In this document: in pieces, positions 1 to 14,785 of the stretch | Position numbering within the stretch: the stretch's first letter is position 1 | How the letters are laid out: each line of letters begins with the position of its first letter | NCBI GenBank assembly: GCA_040768005.1 | Contig: JAXGNL010000001.1 | Coordinates: forward strand, 7,008-71,007 | Reading direction: 5' to 3' | Source of the DNA: Kiritimatiellia bacterium | GTDB lineage: Bacteria; Verrucomicrobiota; Kiritimatiellia; CAIQIC01; Lenti-01 | DNA length: 64,000 nt | Made by a program: the position numbers and the translations under genes | The notes under the pieces: model-generated | Databases searched by the model: none | Seen by the model: the letters and a program-made list of their open reading frames with translations, nothing else | What the model was told of the DNA's origin: nothing

Positions 1-812
1 TCTTCGGGGGGCAGGGCGGATTCCATGCTGAATTCCGCCACGCCGGCGGTGTAGCTGCGCTGGGCGACGCCGCGCACATCGGAGGGGCGTCCCCGCAGAG
101 AGTCGCGCAGCGCCTTGAGTTTCCAGAGCTGGTCCACGCCGCCCACGGTCAGTTCCACACGGTGGGGAAAGGCGCCGGCGCCCGGATCGCCGCCGGGCGT
201 CCATTTAGACAGCATGTCCGGGAGCAGGGAATCCAGGGCCTTCTCGCCGGCGCCGCGCAGGGCTTTGGCGCTTCCGCTGACATCTTCCAGGCCGACCACC
301 GTGACGTCTTCGGAAGCGGCGGCGAGGGTGGCGGAATTATCGGTGCGGACGGCGCGCAGGGTGGCCACGGCCTGGTAGGAGCGCAGATTGGTGTCGGAGA
401 TGCGGCGGGCGGAGGGTTTGGCCACGGCTTCGCCGATGAGGACAATATCCGCGCCGAACTGCGTGCCGAGGGCGGCGGCGCCGCGGTTGTCGCCGGCGGC
501 GATCAGCATCTGCCGGCTGCGGGCGATGTTGGCGCGCACCATGTCCTGATCCACCACGGGCACATTCTGGGCGATCAGTTTCTTCACGGCCATGGCTTCG
601 ACCTCGGCCGTGGCGATCGTGCCGAGACTCTTTTCGTCCACGATGATCATGACCCGCGGCAGGAAAGACGGGGCGACGGATTGTTTCCGGACCGTTGGGC
701 GCGGAGCGGGCGCCGGGCGGGAAGCGACCGGCGCTTGAGCGGGCCCGGTCGGGGTGACGCAGCCGGCCAGCAGGAGGAGAAGGGGGAGAAAAACGATGGA
801 ACGAATTTTCAT
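1..812 (-). CDS. lipoprotein of unknown function, C-terminus beyond the window edge (not in the ORF track)
   Basis: Own reverse translation from the ATG at 812 gives MKIRSIVFLPLLLLLAGCVTPTGPAQ..., a signal peptide plus lipobox LLAG|C. The frame stays open to position 1. AAGGAA lies 7 nt upstream of the ATG. The start is 14 nt after the stop of 827..1393. Confidence 0.6.
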   Translation of the reverse strand, partial: MKIRSIVFLPLLLLLAGCVTPTGPAQAPVASRPAPAPRPTVRKQSVAPSFLPRVMIIVDEKSLGTIATAEVEAMAVKKLIAQNVPVVDQDMVRANIARSRQMLIAAGDNRGAAALGTQFGADIVLIGEAVAKPSARRISDTNLRSYQAVATLRAVRTDNSATLAAASEDVTVVGLEDVSGSAKALRGAGEKALDSLLPDMLSKWTPGGDPGAGAFPHRVELTVGGVDQLWKLKALRDSLRGRPSDVRGVAQRSYTAGVAEFSMESALPPE

Positions 813-826
813 GATAGGGATTCCTT

Positions 827-1393
827 TCAACGCAGGTGACGGTTCAGGGCGACAGCCATGTCATGGACGACTTTCCGGGAATGCTGGGCCAGGGTATCGT
901 TCCGGCCGCCCCGCGCCGCGTGATCCACGCTCCACAGGATCTTGCCGGTGCCGCAATCGATCAGGCGGATCGTGATGCCGACGACGGGACAGGAGCGGCC
1001 GCCGAGCGCCGCGGTTTCATATTCCGAGACCGTGCCGATGATGACGGCCTGGGCGCCGGCCATCTGGCCGAGCTGGGCGGCCTGGCCGGCCGTCAGGCCG
1101 GAGAGGGCGACTTCGGTTTCGCCCAGCACGCCGGACATCTGTGCGCGTTCCACCAGTTCGTAGCGGGTCAGCTTCATCATTTCGGTGACGAACTGGTCCG
1201 ACACGGAGCCGCCGATCAGCGTGGTGGCGGCCTTGAAGGGAAGAATGCCGACTTTGGCGATGTCCAGGGCTTCGCGAGCGACATAGACATTGGGTTCGCC
1301 GGTGCCGGCACCGCCGGAGGTGGAGCCGCCGGGTGCCGCGCAACCCGCCAGCAGGGCCAGGAGGGGAAGAGGAATCAACCAGTTGAATTTCAT
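827..1393 (-). CDS. small lipoprotein with a CsgG/TolB-N-like (LpoB/FlgO-like) alpha/beta domain
   Basis: 188 aa ORF with lipobox LLAG|C in MKFNWLIPLPLLALLAGC. The core VGILPFKAATTLIGGSVSDQFVTEMMKLTRYELVERAQMSGVLGETEVALSGL...AQAVIIGTVSEY...IRLIDCGTGKILWS fits the CsgG-family pattern. It is clearly paralogous to the N-terminus of 7011..9509. AGGAG lies upstream of the ATG. Confidence 0.7.
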   Translation of the reverse strand: MKFNWLIPLPLLALLAGCAAPGGSTSGGAGTGEPNVYVAREALDIAKVGILPFKAATTLIGGSVSDQFVTEMMKLTRYELVERAQMSGVLGETEVALSGLTAGQAAQLGQMAGAQAVIIGTVSEYETAALGGRSCPVVGITIRLIDCGTGKILWSVDHAARGGRNDTLAQHSRKVVHDMAVALNRHLR

Positions 1394-1402
1394 GCGGGTC
1401 TC

Positions 1403-1789
1403 CTATTTCATTTCCAGTTTCCGGACGCGTGAATCCAGCGACTGAAGACGGGTGACGGTCTGCTCCATCTGCTGCACCCGTCGTTCCAGTTCGGCGATGC
1501 GACGTTCGATGTTGTAGGCGATGGAAGGGGGGCGGGATCCCGGTCCCAAACGGGCTTCCAGGGCGTCCAGGCGTTGCAGAAGGGCCTTCCATTCGGCTTC
1601 GGTGACCACAGGGACCGGCGGGGGCGGAGATTCCTCCATGTCGGCCGGACGGGTCGGGGCGGTGCCGGCGTCGGGGAACACGCTTTCCACCGGGCTGACG
1701 ACCTGGCCGGCGGCCGGCCCCGCGCCAAGGATCAGCAGGCAGAACAGAACGAGTGCGAACGGAGCGGTTTTCATGGGGAAGGTGTTCAT
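1403..1789 (-). CDS. small secreted coiled-coil protein
   Basis: Track ORF 1403..1825. Start placed at the ATG at 1789, which forms an ATGA overlap with the stop of 1786..4520. Hydrophobic N-terminus MNTFPMKTAPFALVLFCLLILGAGPAAG, then a heptad-like tail (RRIAELERRVQQMEQTVTRLQSLDSRVRKLE). Confidence 0.55.
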   Translation of the reverse strand: MNTFPMKTAPFALVLFCLLILGAGPAAGQVVSPVESVFPDAGTAPTRPADMEESPPPPVPVVTEAEWKALLQRLDALEARLGPGSRPPSIAYNIERRIAELERRVQQMEQTVTRLQSLDSRVRKLEMK

Positions 1790-4520
1790 TGTCCGGAGTT
1801 CGACATACCGATTTTCCAGCCGCATTTGGGACAGACGATCCAGTAGAGCACATCATCGCCGGGCCCCGGTGGTTGTTTGCCGCAGGGGTAGTGTTTGCAA
1901 CGGGCGCAGACCAGCCACCAGTCACGAGGGGGCGTGGAAGAGGCGGGAGGCGTGGTACTGGTGGCTGGAGTTGCAGACGTGGAGGTTGTCGTCGGGGGGG
2001 TGTTGGTGGCCGTGGAGACGGTTTCGCGGTCGCAGATGGGGCACCGGGAGGGCCCGGGCGGCTTGCCGGTCCAGGTGTAACTGCAGCCATAGGTAATGGT
2101 GATGGTGCCGTCATCGTTCCGGGTGCTGCTGCTGACGCCGATGGGGTCCGTGGGATCGGGCGTGGGCAGGTCGGCGGAAGCGGTACCGGCACCGGATGAA
2201 CTGGAACTGGAAGAAGCGGTGCCGGTGGGTTTGGAGCCGCCGGAGGAGGCGCTGGAAGCCGGGGGCTTTTTCTGTCCGGAGGAACCCGAAGAAGAGGAGC
2301 CGGAAGACGGGGAGGCGGCGGTCCGGGTTTCACCGGCGCCGGATTCCCCGGCGGCATCCGAATCATCTTCGTCCGAGCCGAAGATTTCGCCGACGACTTC
2401 GTCCGCGGCGCCCTGGCCGAGGGCCTGGCCGAAGGCCTTGCCGCCTTCGGTAATGCCGGATTCAACGGCATCGCCGATGGCCTTGCCCCAGCTGTTTTCC
2501 CGGTCGGCCTTGTTGACGTTCCGGGTGGAGTCGTCCCGGATATTCCGGGCATCGCGTCCGCCGGCATCCTTCGTGGTCTTGGCATCGCGGATCTGCTGGT
2601 TGCCGATATTGGAAGATTCCTCCATCTGGGCATTCTGGGCCATGGTCAGGGAACTGTCGGCCCCGCGCTGTTCCTGGTTGCCGGTCCATTGGGACGAAAA
2701 GTCGTCCGCCGTCTTGTATCCGTTGGCGGCCAGGTCCACATCCACATCGGCATCGGACGGGGGTTCCGCGTCGCGCGGATCGGGGGAACCCCGGAGTGGT
2801 TCTGCCCTCGCCGGTGCCACTTCATAGGTGGTCTGCGAGATGACATTGCCATCCGCGTCGGTTTCGGTTTCCGTGGCGCTGACGATGTTTCCGTCGGCAT
2901 CGCGGGTTTCGGTAAGCGTGATGCGGCTGCCGTCTTCGCCTTCGACATAGCCCTTGGTGATGGTGCTTTCGCCGGAAGAGGTGTCCGGCGCCGGGTCATC
3001 GGTTTCGTCCGGCATTGACGTATCGTCGGATTCCGGGATGTCCTCCGGTTCATTTTCGGCTTCGTCATCGGTGACTTCGGGTTCGTCCGCCGCGGTCTCT
3101 TCCCCTCCGCTGCTTGAACCCGTCCGATCTTCTTCCGCGGAGTCCGCAGTTTCTTTCTCTTCCGCGGATTCAGAATCGTCGTTGTCTTCGGATTCTTCGG
3201 TTTCTTCGTCTTCCGTTTCCGCCTGGGGTTCCGGGACATAGCCGGTCTCTTGCTCATCGCCGCCGGGCTCCAGGGAGGTGTCGGGCGATTCCCCGTCGGG
3301 CTCAACCGGTTCGGATTCCGCTTCCGGCTCGGTTTCCTGGCCGTCTTTCTCCTCCGGCTCCGAATCGGTGTTGCTTTCCGGATCGGCCGGGCCGGTCACC
3401 TTGTCATCCGCTTCCTTCGCTGCCTCTTCGTCGCCGTCTTCGTCTTCCTGGAGGATTTTCGGGAGAACTTTTTTGGACAGATCGCCGGCGATGGCGTCCG
3501 GGGAGAATTCCCCGATTTTCCTGGCGGCGTCTTCCAGCCGCTTGTCCCCGGTGACCCGGGCCAGGTCTTCGAAGATTTTCTGCAGGCGTTCCTGGCCTTC
3601 GCCGTATTTCTCGTATTTGTCCATCAACTCGTCGTAGCGGTCCTGGCCCAGGGCCTTTTTCAGCGCTTCATCGGCCTGGCCGAGCATTTCGCTTTTATAC
3701 TCGCCGATCTTGTCCTTGAGCCGGTCTTCAATCTGTCCCTGGACAAAATCCCGGGCGGCGCCGGAGGGATCATCGGAGATGGCCTTGGCCTGTTTTGCGG
3801 CTTCCTCCATCCATTCGACAGCCTTGGTGGAGGTGCCGACGGTGAGGGCGTCGAGCGCCTTGATATACGTGTCGGCGCCGGCGGCGACGCCTTGGCGGAG
3901 ATCCTGTTCCAGAATATCGATACCGCGGACCTTCAGTTCGCCGGCGGTGATGTTGTAATCGCTGGAAGCCTCATCCGTGGCGGTGGTCAGTTGGGAGTGC
4001 ATCTTGGTGGCCAGGCCCCGGCTGTTGTTTTCGAACGGGTCCATGACCGCCGGCGTGTCTCCGCGGGTATGGTCCTTTCCATCGAGGAAGTTCCGCCAGA
4101 ACTGGCCTGATTTTTCGCCCCGGGGATCGTCCTTTGGACTGAACCCGTACACCTTGTTCAAGGCCTTGTTGTCCTGCAGAGAGCGGTAGTACTGGTCCAG
4201 TTTGCGCTGATCCTTGACGCGGGGTTTCCCCTTCTCATCGTAGTAGATGGCGCCCTGGTAGGAGAGGACACTCAGGATGCGCTCCCGGTCGCGCTTGTTC
4301 CGCTCGGCGGGATTGACGAACTTTCCGGCCGCCGAGTCGGTGATGTACGTGCCGGCGTCGTTGACCTTTTGCTTGATCCCGCCGGCACATAATTGAATCC
4401 GTCGCCGATGGCGTCCATGACGCCGGCTCCGGCGCCAACAGGCAAGGCGAGCAGCCAGATTGCGCCGGCCGCCAGGCTGGAAACGAAGAATCGGCGGGGA
4501 GACATGGGGGGGCGGTTCAT
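1786..4520 (-). CDS. giant polyacidic secreted protein, paralog A (reading frame broken near 4383-4390)
   Basis: The body is track frame 1786..4551 from ...GGIKQKVNDAGTYITDS onward. The signal peptide MNRPPMSPRRFFVSSLAAGAIWLLALPVGAGAG is in another frame (track ORF 4272..4544), with its ATG at 4520 preceded by AGGAGAGG. The protein has a helical head, a long D/E/S/T/P-rich linker, a ~325 aa module shared with 4591..6996, and terminal CxxC pairs. Confidence 0.6.
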
Positions 4521-4590
4521 GCTGACCTCTCCTGGAAGTGCCATTGGCCATGGGCAGCGGGATCCATTCGCCGGATCACATTGAAGGGGG

Positions 4591-6996
4591 TCATTCGATT
4601 TCCACCGTGATCAAGGTGCTGCCTTTGACGAAATGGCCGTTGGCGCATTTATAGACGCGTCCATAGAGATAGTGATCGTTTTGAAACGTGACGGGTGCCT
4701 TGCAGACCGGGCATCCGGCCCGTGTTTTTTTGGGGGCGGTCGGCGGGGAGGCGGGGGCGGTCACGGCGGTTGCGGCCGGACTTGGGGACGTGGCGGTCGG
4801 CGTCGTGGGGGGTGCCGGAGGGGTGTTGGTGGCCGTGGAGACGGTTTCGCGGTCGCAGATCGGGCATCGGGCGGGGCCGGGGGGCTTGCCGGTCCAGGTG
4901 TATCCGCAGCCATAGGTGATGGTGATGGTTCCGTCGGGGTTCCGGGTGCTGCCGGTGACGCCGATGGGGTCGGCGGGATCCGGTGCGGGCAAGCCGGCGC
5001 TGGCAGTGCCTGCGCCGGACGAGCCGGACCCGGAAGAAGCGGTGCCGGTGGGTTTGGAGCCGCCGGAGGAGGCGCTGGAAGCCGGGGGATTTTTCCGGCC
5101 GGAGGAACCCGAAGAAGACGAGCCGGAAGACGGGGTGCCGGCGGTCTGGGTTTCGCCGGCGCCGGATTCCCCGGCGGCATCCGAATCCTCCTCGTCCGAG
5201 CCGAAGATTTCGCCGACGACTTCATCTGCGGCGCCCTGGCCGAGGGCCTGGCCGAAGGCCTTGCCGCCTTCGGTGATGCCGGATTCGACGGCATCGCCGA
5301 TGGCCTTGCCCCAGCTGTTTTCCCGGTCGGCCTTGTTGACGTTCCGGGCGGAGTCGTCCCGGATATTCCGGGCGTCGCGTCCGCCGGCATCCCGGGTGAT
5401 TTGGGCATCACGGATCTGCTGGTTGCCGATGTTGGCGGATTCCTCCATCTGGGAGTTCTGGGCCATGGTCAGGGAACTGTCGGCGCCGCGCTGCTGCTGG
5501 CTGTCCGTCCATTGGGACGAGAAGTCGTCCGCGGCGTTGTATCCGTCCGCGGCCAGATCCACATCCACCTCGGCATCGGACGGCGGTTCGGCGTCGCGCA
5601 GATCACGGTCCGGCCGGGTGGTTTTGCCCTCGCCGGTGCCGCCTTCATAAGTGGTTTGCGAGATGATATTGCCGTCTGCGTCGGTTTCGGTTTCCGTGGC
5701 GCTGACGATGTTTCCGTCGGCATCGCGGGTTTCAGTGAGAGTGATGCGGCTGCCGTCTTCGCCTTCGACATAGCCCTTGGTGATGGTGGACTCGCCGGGT
5801 GCGCCGCCGGCATCGGGCGCCGGGCCGGAAGCGGGCGGAGACACTTCGGGCGGGGTCCCTTCCGCATCGTCTTCCGCTTCTCCGTCGCCGGCATCATCCG
5901 GGCCGGCGTTTTCCTCGGCGTCCGTGTCCTTATCGTCTTCGCCGTCCGGGGCAGCCTCTCCGTCGTCGGAGTCTTCGTCATCGCTCTCCGTTCCGCCGCC
6001 AACGGATTCCTCCGGGATGGAATCGTCCGGCTCGTCGGGAGGGGCAGTGGATTCATCCGGTCCGCTTTCGGCATCGTCCGTTTCGGGTTGATCCGGCTCG
6101 GATTCCTCCTCCCCTTCATTTTCATCGTCCGACGGCGTTTCGCCGGTTTCTCCGGTTTCGCTGTCGGCGGGCGGTTTGGTTCCGGTTTTCTCTCCGGCGG
6201 CGGTTTCCGGGCCGTTTTCGCTGCCGGGGGGAGACACCGCTCCCGGTTCCTTTCCCGGAGATTCCGGCTGGTCAGGGGCGGTGCCGGTTTCCGGCACGGA
6301 TTCCGGCTTTGCTTCGGGCTCGGTTTTCCCGGGGGAAGCGGGTGGCTTTGGAGGAGGGGGAGGCGGCGCATAGGTGCTGACGGCGTATCCCTCCTCCTTC
6401 ATGAAGGATTTCCAGTCGTCGAGCGACATGGTGAATGCGCCTTTTCGAAAGCCGGAAAACCGGCCTTCGGCGCCGCTGTGGTACCAGAGATCCATGACAT
6501 ATTCCTTGCCATCGACCTGTACAACGGGTGCGCCATGATTCCGGTTCACGTTGAAGGGGGTGGAATAGCCGAGGCCTGCCGGTTCCACCGCGATGCTGCC
6601 GGTCTGGAAGCCGGCGCCTTCCAATGCGGAGTTGATGTTCACGGTCAGGTCGCCGCAGGTCCCCGGGGCTTCGCCGATTCCCTGCCGGCCTTTGCCGAAA
6701 TACCAGTTGTTGGGTTTGATGCCGGCGGCGTCATAGCGTTGTCCCACTTTGTCGGCCACGTACCTGGCCCGATCCAGGGGGGGCATTTTCTGCACATCCG
6801 GATCCTGGGCAATGGATTCCCCGTATTGCTTCCAGTCCTTGCCATCCCATTGGTCCAGCGGCTTGGTTTTAAACGAAGGCGCGGCGGGGGGGGCGGCGGG
6901 AGCCGGCACCGCGGCCAGCAGGACGCTGCAAAGAATCCATCGGCCGATCCATCCCGGCCGTTGAACCGGAGTCCGCGGGGGGCGGCCGGGAAACAC
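4591..6996 (-). CDS. giant polyacidic secreted protein, paralog B, with a transglutaminase/papain-like N-terminal domain
   Basis: Track frame 4591..7611. The upstream part overlaps 7011..9509 and is Arg-rich noise. The start is therefore placed at the in-frame GTG at 6996 (alternative TTG at 7002), giving MFPGRPPRTPVQRPGWIGRWILCSVLLAAVPAPAAP. Head domain motifs are GTCGD...NHGAPV...VMDLW. These are followed by a polyacidic linker, the shared module (GESTITKGYVEGEDGSRITL...ITITYGCGYTWTGKPPGP) and CxxC pairs. Confidence 0.7.
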   Translation of the reverse strand: MFPGRPPRTPVQRPGWIGRWILCSVLLAAVPAPAAPPAAPSFKTKPLDQWDGKDWKQYGESIAQDPDVQKMPPLDRARYVADKVGQRYDAAGIKPNNWYFGKGRQGIGEAPGTCGDLTVNINSALEGAGFQTGSIAVEPAGLGYSTPFNVNRNHGAPVVQVDGKEYVMDLWYHSGAEGRFSGFRKGAFTMSLDDWKSFMKEEGYAVSTYAPPPPPPKPPASPGKTEPEAKPESVPETGTAPDQPESPGKEPGAVSPPGSENGPETAAGEKTGTKPPADSETGETGETPSDDENEGEEESEPDQPETDDAESGPDESTAPPDEPDDSIPEESVGGGTESDDEDSDDGEAAPDGEDDKDTDAEENAGPDDAGDGEAEDDAEGTPPEVSPPASGPAPDAGGAPGESTITKGYVEGEDGSRITLTETRDADGNIVSATETETDADGNIISQTTYEGGTGEGKTTRPDRDLRDAEPPSDAEVDVDLAADGYNAADDFSSQWTDSQQQRGADSSLTMAQNSQMEESANIGNQQIRDAQITRDAGGRDARNIRDDSARNVNKADRENSWGKAIGDAVESGITEGGKAFGQALGQGAADEVVGEIFGSDEEDSDAAGESGAGETQTAGTPSSGSSSSGSSGRKNPPASSASSGGSKPTGTASSGSGSSGAGTASAGLPAPDPADPIGVTGSTRNPDGTITITYGCGYTWTGKPPGPARCPICDRETVSTATNTPPAPPTTPTATSPSPAATAVTAPASPPTAPKKTRAGCPVCKAPVTFQNDHYLYGRVYKCANGHFVKGSTLITVEIE

Positions 6997-7010
6997 CGGC
7001 AACGTCGGTT

Positions 7011-9509
7011 TCAATGAGCACCTCTGGGTTTGCGAATTTCCAGGGGAGGAGAGAACGGGCTTTCGAGGCCGTCCCGGTCCACAGCCGTTACCATCACCAC
7101 CAGTTTGCGGGCAAGGGATTCGACGGGGAGGAAACAGTCCGCCGTTTCCGTCACGGCGAGTTCGTCCAGCCCCATGAAGCGCTTGTTCAGGACGCGGTAG
7201 CGGGCGATGTCGCCCTGCGGCGGGGGGGTCCAGCTCAGCCGGGCACCGTCTTCGCTCCATTCCACGTCGAGGTTCGCCGGAGCGTCGGGGAGGGATTTCG
7301 TGGAGCCGGCGACCACGTCGGACCAGTCGCTTTCGAGCCCGTCGGCGTCCACGGCCTTGACGCGGTAGTAGCGGGTCAGGTCCGGGGAAAGGCTTTCCTG
7401 CTTGAGACCGCGCGTTTCGCCGACGGGGATGCGGGCGGCTTCGGCGAAGCCGCCGTCCGGGGCGGGCGAGCACTCCACCACGTATTCGGCGATGTCCGCT
7501 TCCCGGTTGGCGCCCCAGACCAGGCCGATGACGCGGGCTTTGCCCTGAGAGATTCGCAGACCGGTCGGAGCATTGGGCACCACCTTGGTGACGGCACCGA
7601 CCGGATCGCACCAGTCCGAGGGGGTGCCGGCGGTATTGATGGCCCGGACGCGATACGCATAAGCGGTGCCGTCCTGCAGGGGGGTGTGCACGCTGGATCG
7701 CATGAAGCGGCCGGTTTCGTCGCCGGTATCCGCATGGCGGCAGGTGTCGCGCCCATCCACCCGGGCGATCGCGGCAAAGGGGCCATCGCCTTCGGCGCGT
7801 TCGATTTCATAGGCGACGGTTTTTTCGTCGGACGAGGGATCCCAGGCCAGTTCGACCCGGCGCGGCAGGCCGGTCACGGCGGAGAGGCCTTCCACCGGCG
7901 GCGGCGGGGGGCGGGTGGCGGCCACGGCGATTTCCGAGTCTTCGCTTTCGGCGGACACCGAATTGACAGCGCGGATGAAGTAGCGGTAAGCCCGGTCGTC
8001 TTCGAGGCTGCCGGGGTCGCCGCCGCCGTCCAGCCAGGCGGTGGTTTCGCGTCCCGTGGCGGAACCCACGCGGGAGAAGGGGGCGGCTTCGCTGTCCGCG
8101 CGATAGATGTCGTAGCGGACGATGTCCGGCGCGGGATGGACGTCCCAGGTGAGAGGCACACAGCGGACTTCAAGGCTCATGGCTTCGAGGCCGGCCGGGG
8201 GCTCGGGCGGGGGCAGGGTGGTGATGTCGACCGGCGCCGAGGCCTCGCCCACCGAGCCGACGCGGTTGACCGAGCGCAGGCGGTACCAATAGGGAGTGGA
8301 ATCCGCCAGCGGGGAAGCGGGGGTTCCGCCTTCTTCAAAGGGGGATTCAGACACGTCGCCGACTTCCACGAACTCCCCTTCCGGATCCCCGGCGCGTTCG
8401 ATGCGGTAAGCGGTCACGCCCTCGGAGGCCGGCGGCTCCCATTCCAGGCGGACGGCCCGTCCGGCGGGGGCCGAGGCCTGGATGTTCACGGGAGGGGCGG
8501 GGGGAGGGGCGGTCATGCTTTCCATGGCCGGCGAGGGCGCGCTTTCGAGTCTGGCGCGATCGATGGCCACCAGCCGGTAGTAGTAGGTGGCGGCATCCTG
8601 CAGGGGTTCGCCGCGCGAGCCGGCATCCGCATGGCCGCCCCGGGAAGCCGCCACGGTGGCGATGGGAACAAAGGGACCTTCGGGACGGTCCGCCCGTTCG
8701 ATGCGGTATTGAAGGGAGCGGTCCGCCGGCGGATCCCACTCGATTGCCACTTCGCGCAGGCCGAAATCCGACACCGCGAAACCGCCCGGAGGGTTCGGCG
8801 GGCGGGTTTCGGGAATGGCCGCGGGGCCGGAATAGCCCACCAGGTCGTCGGGCCGGTCCCGATCGCCGCGGGCATCGTCCCGCTCCTTGCTGACCACGCG
8901 CTGGACTTTCCAGTTCTGGACCACCGCGGCGACCATTTCATGCACCACGTCCCGGGCATGTCCCGACAGGGTGTCGAGGGGCGATTCGGCGCGTCGGGCA
9001 TGCCCCACGCTCCACATCACCCGCCCGGTGTCGCAGTCAATCAGCCGGATGGACGCGCCGACGACCGGATAGGCGCGGCCGCGGTGGGCCACCGTGCCGT
9101 ACTCGTCCACCGTGCCCAGAATGACGCCGTCGGCGCCCAGCATGCGGCCGGCTTCGATGGCCGCGGATTCCGACAGGCCGGAGAGCGCGAATTCGGTTTC
9201 CCCCAGCACGCGGTCGATCTGTCCGCGTTCCACCAGGGTGTAGCGGCGGGCCCGCAGCATTTCCGTAACGAAGATGTCCGAGACGGAGGACCCGATCAGG
9301 TCGGTGGGGGCTTTGAAGGGCAGCACGGCCACCTTGGAGATGGAAGAAGCCACGGGCGCGACATAGACGTTGGCGTCGGTCTTGGTGCGGGCGAAGTATT
9401 TGACGTCCTGCGCGGACGCCGCGGCGATGCCCAGGCATCCCGCGATGGCCGCCGCCAGCCCCATGCGTCTGGTCCAACCGTTCCTGCCTTGCCGCCAACC
9501 CGCCATCAT
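7011..9509 (-). CDS. lipoprotein: CsgG/TolB-N-like domain followed by about six fibronectin type III repeats
   Basis: Track ORF 7011..9527 begins at a TTG. The ATG at 9509 has GGAGG 8 nt upstream. Lipobox AIAG|C. The N-terminal ~190 aa (VAVLPFKAPTDLIGSSVSDIFVTEMLRARRYTLVERGQIDRVLGETEFALSGL...) is paralogous to 827..1393. It is followed by ~90 aa repeats of the form PPxPxGL...WxxxxxxxxxxYxIxR......YxYRVxAVnxxGxxS. Confidence 0.8.
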   Translation of the reverse strand: MMAGWRQGRNGWTRRMGLAAAIAGCLGIAAASAQDVKYFARTKTDANVYVAPVASSISKVAVLPFKAPTDLIGSSVSDIFVTEMLRARRYTLVERGQIDRVLGETEFALSGLSESAAIEAGRMLGADGVILGTVDEYGTVAHRGRAYPVVGASIRLIDCDTGRVMWSVGHARRAESPLDTLSGHARDVVHEMVAAVVQNWKVQRVVSKERDDARGDRDRPDDLVGYSGPAAIPETRPPNPPGGFAVSDFGLREVAIEWDPPADRSLQYRIERADRPEGPFVPIATVAASRGGHADAGSRGEPLQDAATYYYRLVAIDRARLESAPSPAMESMTAPPPAPPVNIQASAPAGRAVRLEWEPPASEGVTAYRIERAGDPEGEFVEVGDVSESPFEEGGTPASPLADSTPYWYRLRSVNRVGSVGEASAPVDITTLPPPEPPAGLEAMSLEVRCVPLTWDVHPAPDIVRYDIYRADSEAAPFSRVGSATGRETTAWLDGGGDPGSLEDDRAYRYFIRAVNSVSAESEDSEIAVAATRPPPPPVEGLSAVTGLPRRVELAWDPSSDEKTVAYEIERAEGDGPFAAIARVDGRDTCRHADTGDETGRFMRSSVHTPLQDGTAYAYRVRAINTAGTPSDWCDPVGAVTKVVPNAPTGLRISQGKARVIGLVWGANREADIAEYVVECSPAPDGGFAEAARIPVGETRGLKQESLSPDLTRYYRVKAVDADGLESDWSDVVAGSTKSLPDAPANLDVEWSEDGARLSWTPPPQGDIARYRVLNKRFMGLDELAVTETADCFLPVESLARKLVVMVTAVDRDGLESPFSPPLEIRKPRGAH

Positions 9510-9625
9510 AATCCAACCTCCGGACAAGTAGTTCTGCGTTCAGTTCAAGCATGCAGAATCCGGGGCCGGAAACAAGGCAAATTGCCCGCTTGGCGGATGA
9601 TTTTGCCGTCCGGCCGGAGCGCGGC

Positions 9626-11254
9626 CTAGCCCTTGCAGCCGGCGGGGATCCGGTACAGGCCGCCCGAGGCCGTCACCAGGTCTTCCAGCGAATGCGCAGG
9701 CAGCCGGTCGGGGGTGGCGGATGCGGGATCAATGCCGAGATCGGCGACGGTCCGGATGATGCCGGCGGAACGCAGGGTGTCGCGTGCCGCGGCGGTCGAA
9801 GTGGCGCCAACGGGTGTATCACCGGCCACCGCGGCCACAGCCTGCTGGCGGGTCTCCGGATCGGGGCATCGGTCCAGGTAGGCAATGCCCAGTTCCGTGA
9901 CGATATGCGTGACCTGGTCGCCGGCGATCATCACGGGCGGTTCCGGGAAAATGCCGTCCCGGTGCAGCTGCTGGGCGTCGAGCTCCTCGACAAAGACCGG
10001 AATGTTCTTCTTTTCGGAGCGGGTGGGGGTCATCTGGACCACCAGCTTGCGCCCGCGAAAGACCTGTTCGCGGGTGCCGCCCGCGGCCGCCGTGGCGGCG
10101 GTGTTGTGGCGGCGGCCCGGCGGCGTGCCGCCGAGATTGGGCGCGCCGCCGAAGCCGGCGATCATGCCCCGGATGGCGGTGGAGGAGTTGCCGAAGCGGT
10201 CCATCTGGAGCGTCGCGCCGATGAACAGATCAATGGCATAGAGGCCGGCGATGTGCGCGCAGCACCGGTTGGAGCGCATGGAGCCGTCGGGGCCGACCGC
10301 AAAAATGTCGGGACGCGCCCGGATATAGTCCTCCATGCCCGGCTCGCCGCCGAAGGCATAGATGTGTTCGACAAATCCGGCCTCGATGGCGGGGATCAGC
10401 GTGGGATGGGGATTGAGCACCCAGCGCGTGGCCACCTGTCCTTTGAGGCCGAGTTCCGCGCCGTAGGTGGGCAGGAGCAATTCAATGGCGGCGGTGGCGT
10501 AGCCGAGCCCGTGGTTGAGCGCCTGCACGCCGTAAGGCTGGTAGATGCCCTTGAGCGCCATCATCGCCATCAGGATCTGCTGGTTCGTGATTTTGCCGGG
10601 ATTGCGGGTGAACAGCGGCTGCAGGTGATAGTCCTCCTCCGTCACCACGATGAAATCCACCCATGAGGCCGGAATGTCCACGCGGGGAAGCTGCGCCTGC
10701 TTCTGGCGGACCTGCACGATGACAACGCCCATTTTGAAGCGCGCCGCTTCGGCGATGACCGGAGAATCCTCGGTGTTGCCTCCGGTGTAGATGTTGCCGG
10801 CTTCGTCGCAGGCTTCCGCGGCCAGGATGGCGACCTGCGGATACAGGTCCACGAAGTAGCGGCCGTAGAGTTCCAGATAGGTATGGATGGCGCCGATCTT
10901 GACCTGGTTGGCGGCGGCCAGCTGATAGAGGGCCTTGGACTGCGGCCCGGAATAGGCGAAATCCAGGCGGTCGGCGATACCCCGGCGGAACAGCTCGAGA
11001 TGCTCGTCCAGGACCAGGGTGGATTGCGTCATGTGCAGGTGGTTCACCTTTGCGGGATCCAGCTGGACCAGTTCACGCGCGAAGAAATCCGCCTGCTTCT
11101 GATTGTCGCCCTCGATGCACACCCGGTCCCCGCTGCGAATCACGGACTGCAGCAGCGCCAACGCATCGGTTTTGGCCACGAATTTGCCGCGGGCGAGCGG
11201 GGCGGCGGCCTGAAGGCGGGAGTGGTAACTGTCGCGAAGATGGTCGAATTTCAT
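9626..11254 (-). CDS. mdcA: malonate decarboxylase alpha subunit-like CoA/ACP transferase (orphan)
   Basis: Strong recalled similarity to MdcA along the whole length: GDRVCIEGDNQKQADF, IGAIHTYLELYGRY, LPRVDIPASWVDFIVV, LNHGLGYATAAIELLLPTYG, LNPHPTLIPAIEAG, IGATLQMDRFGNSST, GFGGAPNLG. The ATG at 11254 is preferred over the TTG at 11260. Confidence 0.6.
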   Translation of the reverse strand: MKFDHLRDSYHSRLQAAAPLARGKFVAKTDALALLQSVIRSGDRVCIEGDNQKQADFFARELVQLDPAKVNHLHMTQSTLVLDEHLELFRRGIADRLDFAYSGPQSKALYQLAAANQVKIGAIHTYLELYGRYFVDLYPQVAILAAEACDEAGNIYTGGNTEDSPVIAEAARFKMGVVIVQVRQKQAQLPRVDIPASWVDFIVVTEEDYHLQPLFTRNPGKITNQQILMAMMALKGIYQPYGVQALNHGLGYATAAIELLLPTYGAELGLKGQVATRWVLNPHPTLIPAIEAGFVEHIYAFGGEPGMEDYIRARPDIFAVGPDGSMRSNRCCAHIAGLYAIDLFIGATLQMDRFGNSSTAIRGMIAGFGGAPNLGGTPPGRRHNTAATAAAGGTREQVFRGRKLVVQMTPTRSEKKNIPVFVEELDAQQLHRDGIFPEPPVMIAGDQVTHIVTELGIAYLDRCPDPETRQQAVAAVAGDTPVGATSTAAARDTLRSAGIIRTVADLGIDPASATPDRLPAHSLEDLVTASGGLYRIPAGCKG

Positions 11255-12103: not shown

Positions 12104-14785
12104 TTAGTTGCGATCGATCAGGTTCTGTAGGACATAGGGAAGGATGCCGCCGGCGAGGTAGTAGTCGATTTCGATGGGGGTATCCATGCGGTTGCGGAGG
12201 CTGAAGGTGGTTTCCGACCCGTCGGGACGCCGGGCGGTGGCGTGGTGGAGCCCGCCGGTCTGCAACGGGCCGTCGCCGCGAATCGTGAGGACTTCCGTGC
12301 CGTCCAATCCGAGGGTGTCGGCGGTTTGGCCGTCGGTGAATTCGAACGGCATGATGCCCATTTCGACGGGTGGGCGGTGGATGCGCTCAAAGCTTTCGGC
12401 GATGACAGCACGCACGCCGAGAAGCAGGGGGCCCTTGGCGGCCCAGTCGCGGGAACTGCCCGCGCCGTAGAGTTTGCCGGCGATGACCACGGCGGGAACA
12501 CCGTCTTTCTGGTACGTCATGGCGGCGTCGAGAGATGCTCATTTCTTCGCCGGAAGGCTGGAGGCGGGTCCATCCGCCCTCCCGGGAGCATGCGGTTGCG
12601 CAGGCGGACATTGGCGAAGGTGCCGCGCATCATGACTTCGTGGTTGCCGCGGCGGGAGCGTAGGAATTGAACTGCTGATGGGGGGAATGCCTCGCTCGAA
12701 CTTGAATGGCGTGCGGCGGGGATTCGCCCCGGCGATGGAACCGGCGGGCGAGATGTGGTCGGTGGTGATGAAATCGCCGAACGGTCCGAGAACGCGGGCG
12801 CCGGCGTGTCCGGCGAAGGAGCCGGCACGGAAAGGAAGGACGGTTCGCGCACATAGGTGGAATCGGGTCGCCAGTCAAACACGGGCCGGTCGGCGACTTC
12901 GATGCGGTTCCATTCGGGGGTGTACCGGTTGACATCGCGATAGGCATCGGCAGGACTCGATGGCTGGGCCGCCGCGGATATCCAGCTGGCGGGCGAGGCC
13001 GGGACAGCAGCGCAGGAACACCGGTTGTCCGCCGGCATCCGTGCCGATCGGGTCATGGTCGAGATCAATGTCCACGCGTCCGGCGAGGGCGAAAGCGAGA
13101 ACCAGGGGGGGAACAGAGATAGTTGGCCTTGCATTGGGGATGGACGCGGCCCTCGAAGTTGCGGTTGCCGGAGAGGACGGCGGCGGCGACAAGATCCTGG
13201 TCGCGGATGGCGGCGGCGATGTCGTCGCGCAGGGGGCCGCTGTTGCCGATGCAGGTGCCGCAGCCGTAGGCGGCGACGCCGAAGCCGAGTTGTTCGAGGG
13301 CGGGGAGCAGGCCGGTATTGGCCAGATAGGCGGTGACGACGCGCGAGCCGGAATGAGGGGAGGTTTTGACGAAAGGCGGCACGGCGAGGCCGCGGGCGAC
13401 GGCTTTCCGGGCAATCAGGCCGGCGGCGAGCAGCAGCACGGGGTTGGACGTATTGGTGCAGGAAGTGATGGAGGCGATGGCAATGGAGCCGTGCCGCATT
13501 TCGGAGCCGTCGGGGAGCGGAGTGACGGTGTTCAGGCGGCCGGCGGGCACGCCGAAGCCGCCGGCGTCGGGCGCGGCGGGGAGGGCATCGAGGAAGCGCT
13601 GCTTGATTTCGCCGACAGGCTGGTGGTCATGAGGTTTCTTGGGGCCGGCGATGGAGGCGGCGACCGTGGCCAGATCGAGTTCGATCGTACGCGAATAGAT
13701 CGGATCGGGGAATTCCGGTCCTGGAAAAGGCCCTGGAGGCGGGCATAGCGTTCGACGAGCGCGCACTGGGAGGGTTCGCGGCCGGTCATGCGCAGGTAAG
13801 CGATGGTTTCGGCGTCCATGGGGAAGAAGCCGGTGGTGGCGCCGTATTCGGGGGCCATGTTGGAGAGCACGGAGCGGTCGGCGAGAGAGTTTGGCGCAGC
13901 CGAGGCCGAAGTATTCGACGAACTGGCCGACGACGTTATGCTGCCGCAGGAGGCAGGTGACGACGAGGGCGAGATCGGTGGCGGTGACGCCGGGGCGCAG
14001 GGCGCCGGTGAGCCGCACGCCGGTAGCGACGGGGGGCAGCAGGGCGATGGGCTGGCCGAGCATGGCGGCTTCGGCTTCGATGCCGCCGACGCCCCAGCCG
14101 AGAACGCCGAGGCCGTTGATCATGGTGGTGTGCGAATCGGTGCCGACGAGGGTGTCGGGCCAGGCGAGGAGGAGCTGTCGGCCTGGGGTTCGGTGTGAAC
14201 GCCGCGGGCGAGGAATTCGAGGTTGACCTGATGGCAGATGCCGACGCCGGGAGGCACGATGCGCAGTTTCCGGAAGGTCTGCTGGCCCCAGCGGAGGAAT
14301 TCATAGCGCTCGCGGTTGCGGTCGAATTCGATCTGGATGTTCCGGTCCAGGGCATCGGGAGCGGCCGCGCAATCGATCTGGACGGAGTGGTCCACGACCA
14401 TGTCCACGGGAATGAGCGGCTCGATGAGGCCGGGATCGCCGCCGCGGCGGACGACTTCCGAACGCAGCATGGCGAGGTCCACGATGCAGGGGACGCCGGT
14501 CAGGTCCTGCAGCAGGACACGGGAGGGCAGAAACGGGATTTCACCCCCGGCGGGGGCGCCGGGCTGCCAGCGGACGAGGGATTCGACATGGCGCCAGTGG
14601 TAGGCCGGATGGGATTGGTTGCGCAGGGCGGATTCAAGCAGGATGCGGACGATGTAGGGCAGCTGGGCGATAGGCGCGCCGCGGAGGGGTTCCAGGGCCG
14701 CCAGGCAGTGATAGGCGATGGTCTGGCCGTCGTGGATGAAGGTCTTGAGGCTGGAAATCGGTTGGCTCATGGGGGCTCCTGTCAT
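12104..14785 (-). pseudogene. acnA: aconitate hydratase A, disrupted by multiple frameshifts
   Basis: Aconitase motifs are spread over at least five track ORFs in all three minus frames. Examples: GICHQVNLEFLARGV (14120..14785), [38 protein letters not shown] and [35 protein letters not shown] (13065..14123). Further examples: [16 protein letters not shown] (13532..13870), [11 protein letters not shown] (12875..13414) and RRGNHEVMMRGTFANVRLRN (12517..13134). The last is SSRDWAAKGPLLLGVRAVIAESFERIH (12104..12520). Confidence 0.8.

What the first reader, a model, noticed from the sequence alone, without database searches (positions are those of the whole stretch)
1..9509. Six-gene envelope cluster: three lipoproteins (two with a CsgG-like fold), a coiled-coil protein and two giant acidic secreted paralogs
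All six ORFs are on the minus strand. Junction gaps are 14 nt or less, or an ATGA overlap, with one exception of 70 nt (4521-4590). Three products carry lipoboxes (AIAG|C, LLAG|C, LLAG|C). Two of them share a short CsgG/TolB-N-like alpha/beta domain, and one is extended by about six FN3 repeats. Between them lie two signal-peptide proteins of roughly 800-900 aa, dominated by polyacidic low-complexity linkers. The nearest known logic is curli, where a CsgG-fold lipoprotein is encoded beside its exported cargo. However, nothing here resembles CsgA/B/E/F, and the putative cargoes are of a very different kind. I do not recognise this gene combination as a described system.
Basis: partly seen in the sequence, partly recalled or inferred. 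Interest (0 to 1): 0.75.

Follow-up and report, generated by a model that had tools for sequence, protein, structure and literature searches.

The report
Conserved Kiritimatiellia envelope operon, function unknown
This is a real gene cluster, kept together in at least 53 species of a little-studied bacterial group, that pairs small ring-type outer-membrane lipoproteins with huge acidic exported proteins whose front ends differ between species but whose tail module stays the same; it matches no described system, and what it does has not been shown.

Summary
The six minus-strand ORFs exist at the stated coordinates, but four points need correcting. P4 has a 1-nt frameshift in this window. P6's lipobox is not conserved. 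The first gene is cut by the window edge, and the operon continues with a 328-aa gene (P0) and a 126-aa lipoprotein. The two giants are paralogous only over a ~330-aa C-terminal module.

The "CsgG-like" domains are the short type. Their nearest solved relatives are PelC and GNA1162, and they lack the CsgG membrane hairpins, so a curli-type channel is unlikely.

The giants' module contains an L-x-D-A-E motif, polar helices, a glycine-zipper helix and Cys/Zn-ribbon elements. Its core also forms the C-terminus of P0. It defines about 175 clusters of exported proteins, and every one that carries an organism label is from Kiritimatiellia. Their N-terminal heads are unrelated to one another and include a transglutaminase-like head (P5) and an RHS head.

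In 53 species-level genomes, P0 follows P1 in 51 of 51 loci with room, and a module-bearing giant lies upstream in 34 of 38.

Best model (inferred, confidence ~0.4): a PelC-type ring-lipoprotein platform plus P1 and P0 docks or exports these polymorphic proteins through their shared module. No named homologue or paper was found.

The parts
1..812 (-). P1, a lipoprotein (LLAG|C). Only the first 270 of 303 codons are in the window. It has a long Pro/Ala linker followed by two domains. It is the most conserved gene of the module.
   Evidence: Translation. The full-length 303-aa gene is in L001 and L014. More than 408 homologue clusters were found; the best 120 listed are 56-96% identical and none has a functional name. 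Pfam LpoB matches only at E 0.025, below threshold. hhalign against the PelC-like domain gives probability 57%. The lipobox Cys is invariant in alignment A7.
827..1393 (-). P2, a 188-aa lipoprotein (LLAG|C) with a short PelC/GNA1162/CsgG-superfamily alpha/beta domain.
   Evidence: Pfam CsgG E 2e-12, 47.3 bits against a cut-off of 20.8. PDB sequence hits are PelC 9h80_C at E 1e-4, or 5.8e-6 with the profile, and GNA1162 4hrv. It lacks the CsgG membrane hairpins.
1403..1789 (-). P3, 128 aa: signal peptide, Pro-rich spacer and a C-terminal coiled coil. Its ATG overlaps the P4 stop (ATGA).
   Evidence: Only sub-threshold coiled-coil Pfam hits. A P3-like gene lies upstream of P1 in 28 of 49 loci. 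The sequence is conserved whichever giant head lies upstream.
1786..4520 (-). P4, a giant acidic exported protein of 911 aa once repaired. It has a helical head of unknown fold, an acidic disordered linker, the shared C-terminal module and a terminal CxxC...CPxCG zinc-ribbon-like tail. In this window it is broken by a 1-nt deletion between 4385 and 4386.
   Evidence: Intact orthologues are P0007 (L014) and the gene in L016. There are no Pfam, NCBIfam or PDB hits. The AF2 model of the orthologue is poor, with mean pLDDT 43, and Foldseek finds nothing useful.
1993..2975 (-). The P4 copy of the block shared with P5: beta module, L-x-D-A-E motif, polar helices, glycine-zipper helix, S/G linker and a small Cys domain.
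   Evidence: blastn of P5 against P4 finds one 984-nt block at 89.7% identity.
4591..7014 (-). P5, a giant acidic exported protein of 807 aa with a TTG start that overlaps the P6 stop (TTGA).
   Evidence: Only 27 homologue clusters were found among 5.8 billion proteins, none with a functional name. AF2 model, mean pLDDT 50.
6370..6867 (-). The P5 head (residues ~50-215), with a transglutaminase/papain-like fold. The candidate catalytic residues are Cys120 (6655-6657), His160 (6535-6537) and Asp175 (6490-6492).
   Evidence: pLDDT is about 75-90 across most of the domain. The only long (~165-column) Foldseek matches are a putative protease (3kd4), the Rad4 transglutaminase-homology domain and, over shorter stretches, arylamine N-acetyltransferases. 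All are weak, with E >= 0.05. Cys, His and Asp are unchanged in all 11 family members that carry this head.
5800..6342 (-). The P5 acidic, Pro/Ser/Thr/Gly-rich disordered linker (residues ~225-405).
   Evidence: Composition per 50-residue block reaches 23 D+E against 0 K+R. pLDDT is below 40.
4816..5798 (-). The P5 copy of the shared block. The module core (L-R-D-A-E-P ... NSWGKAIGDAVESGITEGGKAFGQALGQGAADEVVGEIFG) is residues 467-606, window 5197-5616. The GCGYTW...CPIC element is at about 4855-4932.
   Evidence: A profile of the module finds 175 representative proteins at E<=1e-3, 112 of them at E<=1e-10, and the match is C-terminal wherever the protein is complete. hhalign against the P0 family gives probability 94%, E 1e-7, over 138 columns ending at the C-terminus of P0.
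7011..9509 (-). P6: signal peptide, a PelC-like domain (about 8883-9350) 51% identical to P2, then six FN3 repeats (about 7014-8756).
   Evidence: Pfam CsgG E 1e-9 and fn3 E 9e-27. Alignment A8. Orthologues of 816-828 aa are present in L005, L009, L012 and L013, and the lipobox Cys is not conserved among them. A gene with this domain combination lies within 10 kb of P1 in 18 of 27 loci with enough sequence.

Best explanation
The cluster is one operon-like module of the cell envelope, specific to a Kiritimatiellia lineage.

Shown:
- All products carry export signals.
- P2 and the N-domain of P6 are short members of the PelC/GNA1162/CsgG lipoprotein superfamily and lack membrane hairpins.
- P5, P4 and P0 (the gene just beyond the window edge) share a C-terminal module core: an L-x-D-A-E motif, about 90 residues of polar helix, and an amphipathic glycine-zipper helix that ends in IFG.
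- In the giants, S/G-rich linkers and Cys/zinc-ribbon-like elements follow this core.
- The module is constant, while the N-terminal heads differ between species at the same genomic position.

Inferred:
- P2, anchored by its lipid in the inner leaflet of the outer membrane, forms a ring, as PelC, PqiC and CsgG do. The paralogous P6 probably joins it and adds a roughly 20-nm FN3 stalk.
- P1 is a further lipoprotein subunit.
- The helical module cores of P0 and the giants bundle together, and the bundle docks in or under this ring.
- The ring then either holds the giants at the outer membrane or hands them to an outer-membrane channel encoded elsewhere.
- The variable heads (a Cys-His-Asp transglutaminase-like enzyme in P5, an unknown helical domain in P4, an RHS shell in another species) are thereby presented on long acidic tethers.

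In this model the module acts as a C-terminal sorting or anchoring signal, and P0, P1, P2 and P6 act as its platform.
For: - Export signals are read directly from the sequences, and the lipobox Cys is conserved in P1 and P2.
- The PelC-type assignment rests.
- Ring formation by this superfamily is documented: a PelC 12-mer on the PelB barrel (PMC12141448), and the common core and ring habit of PqiC, PA3214, PelC and CsgG (PMC13631591).
- The shared module is supported by a 984-nt block at 89.7% identity between P4 and P5, and by hhalign of the giants' module against P0 at probability 91% and 94%, end to end.
- The module family has 175 representatives. Most full-length members begin with a signal-peptide-like N-terminus, the module is C-terminal, and CxxC pairs follow it.
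- Synteny in 53 species-level genomes: P1-P0 adjacent in 51 of 51, a module-bearing giant upstream in 34 of 38, and the short lipoprotein immediately upstream in 32 of 49.
- The module moves as a unit relative to its neighbours: compare the window with L005 and L009.
- Heads at the syntenic position vary: P4-type 7, transglutaminase-like 3, two other types 1 each, and none of these four in 39 of 51 giants. One giant, in L029, has an RHS head.
- The platform genes are strongly conserved (P1 56-96% identical) while the giants are not (33-50%).
Against: - Oligomerisation, localisation and interaction were not tested. Both structure-prediction jobs went to the giants, and no multimer tool was available.
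- The cluster encodes no outer-membrane barrel, ATPase or inner-membrane component, so export across the outer membrane has no identified route.
- Zinc-ribbon-like Cys motifs are unusual outside the cytoplasm.
- The module helices were modelled only at pLDDT about 50. Similarity between polar, alanine-rich helices can inflate profile scores.
- The transglutaminase-like assignment rests on weak Foldseek hits (E >= 0.05).
- Some module proteins, such as P0027 in L007, are encoded away from any such cluster. This fits scattered cargo genes but shows that linkage is not obligatory.
- The short lipoprotein was detected immediately upstream of P1 in only 32 of 49 loci.
Confidence: 0.4

Rival explanations
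1. This is a curli-like type VIII secretion system. P2 and/or P6 form a CsgG-type oligomeric pore in the outer membrane, and the neighbouring giants are its cargo.
For: Pfam CsgG matches above the gathering score for P2 and P6. Exported proteins are encoded next to them. There is a precedent from memory, not tested here, for CsgG homologues serving non-curli cargo: Caulobacter HfaB.
Against: P2 is about 170 aa when mature. The Pfam match covers only profile positions 34-157 of 210. The P2/P6 profile hits PelC and GNA1162 in the PDB but no CsgG chain at E<1. The alignment to E. coli CsgG has a 13-residue gap at hairpin TM1 and stops before TM2, leaving 28 residues in P2 against 83 in CsgG. No CsgA/B/E/F-like genes are present.
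Confidence: 0.05
2. This is an accessory to exopolysaccharide export. A PelC-like ring funnels a polysaccharide to a porin, and the acidic giants are matrix or capsule-associated proteins rather than clients of the ring.
For: The closest solved relatives of P2 are PelC proteins. In L005 and L006, MBOAT and AlgX-like genes lie a few genes downstream.
Against: No PelA, B, D, E, F or G, no TPR-porin and no glycosyltransferase lies in or next to the module in any locus examined. The MBOAT and AlgX genes are absent from the window, so that linkage is not conserved. The conserved linkage is with module-bearing giants and P0.
Confidence: 0.08
3. This is an envelope-architecture or peptidoglycan-linked module. 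LpoB-like lipoproteins (P1, P2) regulate or tether wall enzymes, and the acidic giants with P0 and P3 are periplasmic structural spacers or cation-binding proteins.
For: Weak LpoB Pfam/NCBIfam matches for P1, P2 and P6. P1 has a long Pro/Ala linker after the lipid anchor, as LpoB does (from knowledge of LpoB). P1 is very strongly conserved, as expected for a housekeeping role. The P5 head has a papain-like fold, a fold class that also includes wall hydrolases.
Against: The LpoB matches are below or barely at threshold (22.9 bits against 22.3 for P2, 14.9 for P1). No PBP or wall-synthesis gene is linked in any locus. The strong between-species polymorphism of the heads, the RHS head and the linkers of about 180 disordered residues fit surface or extracellular proteins better than housekeeping periplasmic ones.
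Confidence: 0.15
4. This is a polymorphic toxin or effector system for competition between bacteria. The module is a trafficking domain, the variable heads are toxins, and a neighbouring small gene encodes immunity.
For: Heads swap over a constant module. One member has an RHS/YD shell. P5 has a Cys-His-Asp protease-like head. Copy number varies from 0 to 4.
Against: The orientation is the reverse of classical polymorphic toxins, with the variable part N-terminal. The gene downstream of the giants (P3) is conserved whatever the head type, so it does not behave as a cognate immunity gene. No T6SS, T5SS/CDI or T7SS marker is present, and PADLOC and Pfam give nothing. This reading overlaps with the best explanation in treating the module as a trafficking signal.
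Confidence: 0.1

Closest known systems
[quoted passage not shown]
   Same: It is a lipoprotein of about 170 aa with the same alpha/beta core. It is the best solved sequence relative of P2 and the P6 N-domain (E 5.8e-6 with the profile). It has no membrane hairpins. PelC forms a 12-mer periplasmic ring under the outer membrane (PMC12141448).
   Different: No PelB porin or any other pel gene is linked. The partners here are acidic proteins, not a cationic polysaccharide. A second paralogue carries six FN3 repeats. Ring formation was not tested.
GNA1162 / DUF799 lipoproteins (PDB 4hrv)
   Same: Similar size and fold, with sequence similarity as strong as for PelC (E 6.5e-6; Pfam GNA1162-like E 2e-4 and 3.5e-5, both below the cut-off).
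   Different: The function of GNA1162 is itself unknown. From memory, its usual partners are a CsgG-family lipoprotein and DUF4810; these are not present here.
CsgG curli secretion channel (type VIII secretion)
   Same: The Pfam family PF03783 matches above threshold. Both are lipoproteins encoded next to exported proteins.
   Different: Both membrane hairpins are missing. No CsgA/B/E/F is present. The neighbouring proteins are giant acidic multidomain proteins, not small amyloid subunits.
PqiC / PA3214 ring lipoproteins capping the helical needle of the MCE protein PqiB
   Same: They belong to the same lipoprotein superfamily core and form outer-membrane rings that bind the C-terminal helical bundle of a partner (PMC13631591). 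This is the closest precedent for the proposed ring-and-helical-bundle docking.
   Different: No MCE, PqiA or PqiB genes are present. No sequence match to PqiC was seen. The analogy is mechanistic only.
C-terminal sorting domains of exported proteins (T9SS CTD, PEP-CTERM and similar)
   Same: The logic is the same: an N-terminal Sec signal, diverse functional domains, a conserved C-terminal module shared by many paralogues, and conserved lineage-specific machinery genes.
   Different: There is no sequence or fold relation. The module here is helical with a glycine zipper and zinc-ribbon-like motifs. No sortase, exosortase or T9SS gene is linked. No transmembrane anchor follows the motif.
LpoB and the flagellar H-ring proteins FlgO/FlgP/FlgT
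   Same: They belong to the same broad TolB-N-like lipoprotein fold class, and there are weak Pfam LpoB and FlgO matches.
   Different: The matches are at or below threshold. No PBP or flagellar genes are linked.

Membership tests
CsgG / curli type VIII secretion | Match to the CsgG family profile (PF03783) | tested here: met
   P2 scores 47.3 bits and P6 38.3 bits against a gathering score of 20.8.
CsgG / curli type VIII secretion | Two beta-hairpin insertions per subunit (TM1, TM2) that build the 36-stranded outer-membrane barrel | tested here: not met
   hhalign of the P2/P6 profile against E. coli CsgG (sequence verified against PDB 3x2r) aligns CsgG residues 72-194. There is a 13-residue gap at TM1, and the alignment ends before TM2. 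P2 has 28 residues left where CsgG has 83. The hhalign probability is low (8.7%), so this rests mainly on length and gap positions. No CsgG chain is hit at E<1.
CsgG / curli type VIII secretion | Linked curli genes (CsgA/B subunits, CsgE/F accessory proteins) | tested here: not met
   No such Pfam or NCBIfam hits in the window cluster or the downstream genes, and none in the related loci.
PelC (Pel export) | A small lipoprotein with the PelC alpha/beta fold | tested here: met
   The lipobox LLAG|C is conserved. The best PDB sequence hits are PelC 9h80_C at E 5.8e-6 and 5t11, 5t10 and 5t0z at E 3e-4 to 6e-4. The fold itself was not modelled.
PelC (Pel export) | Encoded in a pelABCDEFG locus with the PelB TPR-porin | tested here: not met
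   No pel genes, porin or glycosyltransferase in the window cluster or in the loci whose gene tables were read.
PelC (Pel export) | A dodecameric ring at the periplasmic face of the outer membrane | not testable with these tools
LpoB (PBP1b activator) | Match to the LpoB equivalog model (TIGR02722, cut-off 110.55 bits) | tested here: not met
   P2 scores 22.6 bits, P6 14.5 bits and P1 gives no hit. Pfam LpoB gives 22.9 bits for P2 (cut-off 22.3) and 14.9 bits for P1.
Flagellar H-ring FlgO/FlgP/FlgT | Match to the FlgO/FlgP/FlgT profiles and linkage to flagellar genes | tested here: not met
   FlgO Pfam matches P2 at E 0.031, 14.6 bits against a cut-off of 22.6. No flagellar genes are in the loci examined.
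Transglutaminase-like / papain-fold cysteine enzymes (P5 head only) | Cys at a helix N-terminus, with His and Asp on the following strands, on a transglutaminase core fold | tested here: inconclusive
   In the AF2 model the helix starts at Cys120, and His160 and Asp175 lie on strands 162-167 and 170-174. The triad is unchanged in all 11 head-bearing members. However, the Foldseek matches to 3kd4, Rad4 and N-acetyltransferases are weak (E 0.05-0.7), and there is no Pfam hit.
Polymorphic toxin systems (Rhs/CDI type) | A variable toxin domain with a co-varying immunity gene immediately downstream | tested here: not met
   The variable part is N-terminal. The downstream gene P3 is conserved between loci with different heads.
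Known anti-phage defence systems | Match to any PADLOC model | tested here: not met
   No hit at E<=0.01 for any of the eight proteins.

The most novel reading that the evidence does not exclude
The cluster encodes the core of an undescribed protein sorting and surface-display (or secretion) pathway in diderm bacteria, found so far only in Kiritimatiellia. In it, a helical C-terminal module (an L-x-D-A-E motif, a polar coiled coil, a glycine-zipper helix, and often zinc-ribbon-like motifs) is the address tag on about 175 families of polymorphic exported proteins. A platform built from PelC-type ring lipoproteins (one with a six-FN3 stalk), lipoprotein P1 and the tag-bearing adaptor P0 recognises this tag and anchors or exports the proteins.
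Probability: 0.25. Interest if true: 0.8.

Novelty: new variant of a known kind. Interest (0 to 1): 0.6.

Why it matters
Ring-forming outer-membrane lipoproteins of the PelC/PqiC/CsgG superfamily are known from only a few systems: Pel, curli, MCE transport and LPS insertion. Here the same building block sits in an operon conserved across a lineage, with a completely different partner set: a newly delimited C-terminal module carried by hundreds of large exported proteins with interchangeable heads.

If the module proves to be a sorting or anchoring tag, this would be a new way for a diderm bacterium to place proteins at or beyond its outer membrane. It would also give a handle on the cell-surface biology of Kiritimatiellia. 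In this case the genes were seen only in metagenome-assembled genomes, from wastewater, sediment and rumen samples among others.

Even without a known function, the work assigns family definitions to several large groups of 'hypothetical proteins': P1, P0 and the module. It also gives a precise synteny rule that can be used for annotation.

Tried and rejected
- **Family searches.** Pfam, NCBIfam and PDB sequence searches on P4 and P5 gave nothing significant. A PDB profile search with the module gave no hits. With the P0 family it gave only chance hits at E>0.1, and with P1 a chance hit to T4 lysozyme.
- **Homologue search with the module.** The search for homologous proteins with the 8-sequence module alignment A4 returned no hit at all, not even the family's own members. 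That search was wasted. The exhaustive profile search replaced it.
- **Pairwise BLASTP of P0 against P5.** Not significant (E 3.2 for the relevant segment). Only profile-profile comparison supports the shared module.
- **Structure of the P4 orthologue.** The AF2 model was too poor to use (mean pLDDT 43). Foldseek matched only the small four-strand sheet to generic curved sheets. The same SnoaL/WRKY-type matches for P5 were discarded as uninformative.
- **Lpp-like attachment of P3.** P3 ends in Lys in the window, which suggested covalent attachment to the wall as in Braun's lipoprotein. This was rejected because the orthologues end in ...MKQP.
- **c-type haem sites.** The CxxC motifs were considered as haem-binding sites and rejected because no CxxCH is present (read from the sequences).
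- **Downstream regulatory genes.** The response regulator, KaiC-like and ExeA-like genes beyond the window were considered as part of the system. They were rejected because they are absent next to the module in L005 and L009.
- **Promoter and terminator scan.** Uninformative: no promoter-like sites, and terminator-like sites close to the shuffled expectation.
- **Literature.** Searches for Kiritimatiell* with CsgG, and for at least three of PelC, CsgG, LpoB and GNA1162 together, found nothing.

Full report
**1. What is in the sequence**

The region 1-9527 is 62-70% G+C. It holds six co-directional ORFs on the minus strand:
- P1, <1-812. Lipobox LLAG|C. It runs off the window start.
- P2, 827-1393, 188 aa. 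Lipobox LLAG|C.
- P3, 1403-1789, 128 aa. Signal peptide plus coiled coil.
- P4, 1786-4520.
- P5, 4591-7014, 807 aa, TTG start.
- P6, 7011-9509.

One thing was missed. The P4 signal peptide and the P4 body lie in different frames. Aligning the 5' end with the 98%-identical locus L014 shows a single missing G between window positions 4385 and 4386. L014, and L016 from the same or a very close species, carry an intact 911-aa gene. The aconitase gene at about 12116-14770 is also broken, with at least three or four frame changes. Assembly indels and recent pseudogenisation are therefore both possible, and I cannot tell which applies.

**2. The cluster extends beyond the window**

Contigs that encode exactly the same P2 (L001-L004, and L014) show that P1 is 303 aa long. 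After it come a 328-aa exported protein, here called P0, and then a 126-aa lipoprotein on the opposite strand. Further downstream in those contigs lie a response regulator, a KaiC-like ATPase and an ExeA-like AAA protein. These last three are not next to the module in other species, so I do not count them as part of it.

**3. The 'CsgG-like' lipoproteins**

P2 and the N-domain of P6 match Pfam CsgG above the gathering score. They are 51% identical to each other. They are, however, the short form of this superfamily:
- By sequence, the nearest solved structures are PelC (9h80_C; E 1e-4 with P2 alone, 5.8e-6 with a nine-sequence profile), GNA1162 (4hrv, E 6.5e-6) and three further PelC entries. 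No CsgG chain appears at E<1.
- I verified my recalled E. coli CsgG sequence against PDB 3x2r and aligned the profile to it. The alignment covers CsgG residues 72-194. It has a 13-residue gap at the position of the first membrane hairpin and stops before the second. P2 has only 28 residues left at that point, where CsgG has 83.
- The hhalign probability for that alignment is low (8.7%). The argument therefore rests mainly on length and gap positions, together with the PDB ranking.

I conclude that P2 and P6 cannot build a CsgG-type barrel and are better compared with PelC. The literature describes PelC as a 12-mer ring mounted on the periplasmic rim of the PelB barrel (PMC12141448). It also describes PqiC, PA3214, PelC, CsgG and LptE as outer-membrane lipoproteins that share one alpha/beta core, several of which form rings (PMC13631591).

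P6 adds six FN3-size repeats (Pfam fn3 E 9e-27; boundaries read). Its 'AIAG|C' is not a conserved lipobox. The orthologues in L005, L009 and L013 have no Cys and end in AxA-type cleavage sites, while the one in L012 has LLAG|C.

P1 is a conserved lipoprotein with a Pro/Ala linker of about 35 residues and two domains. Its link to the same fold class is weak: Pfam LpoB at E 0.025, and hhalign probability 57%.

**4. The giants**

P5 and P4 have net charges of -75 and -90 and pI about 4.2. Stretches of 150-180 residues contain up to 23 acidic and no basic residues per 50. At the DNA level they share a single 984-nt block at 89.7% identity. The heads, the acidic linkers and the last 70-80 residues are unrelated.

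The AF2 model of P5 has mean pLDDT 50. The folded parts are residues 50-215 (pLDDT 75-90 over most of the domain), a four-strand sheet at 405-466 and a small sheet at 680-720.

For the P5 head, the only long Foldseek alignments are to a putative protease (3kd4) and the Rad4 transglutaminase-homology domain, with shorter alignments to arylamine N-acetyltransferases. All have E >= 0.05. In the model, Cys120 starts a helix, and His160 and Asp175 sit on the next two strands. All three residues are unchanged in the 11 homologues that carry this head. I read it as a transglutaminase/papain-like domain, with moderate confidence.

The P4 head (model of the orthologue P0007) gave nothing usable.

**5. 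The shared module and P0**

The block shared by P4 and P5 contains, in order:
- a short beta module;
- an invariant L-x-D-A-E-P motif;
- about 90 residues of polar helix;
- the most conserved element, NSWGKAIGDAVESGITEGGKAFGQALGQGAADEVVGEIFG, an amphipathic helix with glycine-zipper spacing;
- an S/G-rich linker;
- a small Cys element, GCGYxWTG..PPGP.RCPIC.

In other members the Cys element is replaced by clear CxxC...CPxCG zinc-ribbon motifs.

P0 ends in the same core. hhalign of the giants' module against the P0 family gives 91% (E 1e-6) for the helical part. With the L-x-D-A-E motif included it gives 94% (E 1e-7) over 138 columns, ending exactly at the C-terminus of P0. Pairwise BLASTP alone is not significant, and helical, alanine-rich sequence can inflate such scores. 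What persuades me is the conserved spacing of about 92 residues between L-x-D-A-E and NSW in both families, together with the end-to-end register.

A profile of the module was searched against 1.84 billion representative proteins. It finds 175 at E<=1e-3 and 112 at E<=1e-10. These proteins range from short fragments to 2813 aa, and in those that look complete the module is C-terminal. Most full-length members start with a signal-peptide-like N-terminus and carry CxxC pairs after the module. Of 40 members scanned, none has a Pfam domain in the head apart from one with RHS repeats. Where a source gives an organism label, it is Kiritimatiellae or Kiritimatiellia, and the product name is 'hypothetical protein'.

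**6. Conservation of the gene set**

Close relatives (giants about 49% identical: L005, L006, L009, L010) keep the following order: CsgG-FN3, one giant, the coiled-coil gene, the short lipoprotein, P1, P0, and the 126-aa lipoprotein on the opposite strand. In those genomes the module sits between aconitase and an ArsR/MdcA-like gene pair. In the window, ArsR and MdcA lie between aconitase and the module, so the module has moved as a unit.

A scan of one genome per species found 53 loci with P1. All are MAGs labelled Kiritimatiellae, Verrucomicrobiota or Lentisphaerae, apart from some with generic labels such as 'uncultured bacterium' and two labelled Desulfobulbus, which I take to be mis-binned contigs. 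I scored these loci with profiles built here, counting only loci with enough flanking sequence:

| Feature | Loci |
|---|---|
| P0 directly follows P1 | 51 of 51 |
| Short PelC-like lipoprotein immediately upstream of P1 | 32 of 49 |
| P3-like gene upstream | 28 of 49 |
| Module-bearing giant upstream on the same strand | 34 of 38 |
| CsgG-FN3 gene within 10 kb | 18 of 27 |

Among the 38 loci with at least 5 kb upstream, 27 have one giant, 6 have two, 1 has four and 4 have none. The window's tandem pair is therefore a minority state, shared with L016.

The head at this position differs between species. Of 51 giants, 7 have the P4-type head, 3 the transglutaminase-like head, 1 each has two other types seen in close relatives, and 39 have none of these four. 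The giant in L029 has an RHS/YD head.

The platform genes are far more conserved (P1 56-96% identical among its best 120 hits) than the giants (33-50%).

**7. How it most likely works**

Shown:
- Every component is exported.
- Two components are PelC-type domains.
- Three proteins encoded by this genome share a helical C-terminal core.
- The set is syntenic across a lineage.
- The heads are polymorphic.

Inferred:
- The lipid-anchored P2, probably together with its paralogue P6, forms a ring under the outer membrane as its relatives do.
- P1 is a further lipoprotein subunit of the platform.
- The module cores of P0 and the giants associate through their glycine-zipper and polar helices.
- That bundle docks at the ring. 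The closest precedent is the PqiC ring capping the helical tip of PqiB (PMC13631591).

The ring would then either anchor the giants at the outer membrane or pass them to a channel encoded elsewhere. Disordered acidic linkers of about 180 residues could, by my own estimate, extend further than the width of a typical periplasm. Together with the species-to-species turnover of heads, this favours surface or extracellular exposure.

I put this model at about 0.4. Its weak points are:
- no test of oligomerisation or binding;
- no outer-membrane channel in the cluster;
- the oddity of zinc-ribbon-like motifs in exported proteins;
- modest model confidence for the helices.

**8. Rivals**

- **Curli-type channel (0.05).** Contradicted by the missing hairpins and the absence of Csg partners.
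- **Pel-like polysaccharide accessory (0.08).** It has only the PelC similarity and a non-conserved MBOAT/AlgX neighbourhood in its favour.
- **Housekeeping wall or envelope-architecture role (0.15).** It fits the strong conservation of P1 and the weak LpoB matches. It fits the polymorphic heads poorly.
- **Polymorphic-toxin reading (0.1).** It fits the head swapping, the RHS head and the protease-like head. It lacks a co-varying immunity gene and has the reverse domain order. It overlaps with the best model in treating the module as a trafficking signal.

PADLOC gives no defence-system match.

**9. Comparison with known systems, and novelty**

The building block, a PelC/GNA1162/CsgG-superfamily lipoprotein, is known. 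The set is not a member of the curli, Pel, LpoB or flagellar H-ring systems, because defining features of each were tested and not met (see the membership table).

I found no curated family, functional name or paper for:
- the P1 family;
- the P0 family;
- the C-terminal module and its roughly 175 families of carriers;
- the FN3-stalked PelC paralogue;
- their conserved linkage.

I therefore rate this as a new variant of a known kind: an envelope system based on ring lipoproteins. There is about a one-in-four chance that it is a truly new protein sorting or display pathway.

**10. Verdict**

The curli analogy should be replaced by a PelC/PqiC-type analogy, and the cluster should be redefined to include P0 and the shared module. 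Interest is 0.6. This is a well-delimited, lineage-wide and completely uncharacterised envelope module with an unusual modular cargo family, but its function remains inferred.

Noticed in passing
window 12116-14770 (-): The aconitase gene is split across frames -1, -3 and -1, with a further internal shift. That makes at least three or four frameshifts in 2.7 kb relative to the intact 892-aa orthologue in L005. The adjacent MdcA-like gene (9629-11254) is intact at 86% identity. This is either a pseudogene or a locally error-rich stretch of the assembly.
   Followed up: partly
window 4385/4386: A single-base deletion (GTGGCC to GTGCC) breaks P4 between its signal peptide and its body. L014 and L016 carry the intact gene.
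   Followed up: yes
L001 3731-6134 and L014 6529-8932 (beyond the window start): A response regulator, a KaiC-like ATPase (PF06745), an ExeA-like AAA_22 protein and a 118-aa Pro-rich protein follow the module in this species. They do not follow it in L005 or L009.
   Followed up: partly
P5 residues ~470-475 (window ~5590-5607); P0 residues 195-199 (L001 ~2732-2746): An L-x-D-A-E-(P/A) motif lies about 92 residues upstream of the NSW/glycine-zipper helix. Leu and Glu are invariant across the 40 distant module proteins aligned, and the motif is also present in P0. It may be a recognition or processing site.
   Followed up: partly
L012 4725-5366 and 16922-17428; L013 3895-4401 and 8783-9385; many of L031-L056: In more distant species the module also includes a DUF2059 protein and a ~200-aa lipoprotein, where the window has the coiled-coil P3. 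L012 additionally has a 351-aa acidic protein consisting only of a signal peptide, a disordered region and zinc ribbons.
   Followed up: partly
L013 4402-8748 (giant, residues ~440-500): A ~55-residue, strongly hydrophobic, glycine-rich segment (…GVAAGGFLGGLGGATAVGLGAVAILGAPVTAVGAAAVIGVGLVAGAVGYGVG…) lies inside the head of one distant giant. It looks like a membrane hairpin.
   Followed up: no
window 42200-45457 (+): A type I restriction enzyme R subunit (HSDR_N, SWI2_SNF2, ResIII, T1R_D3). It is unrelated to the finding.
   Followed up: no
L005 and L006 18187-20906: MBOAT and AlgX-like genes (polysaccharide O-acetylation type) lie a few genes downstream of the module in one relative. tblastn finds no copy of them in the window.
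   Followed up: partly
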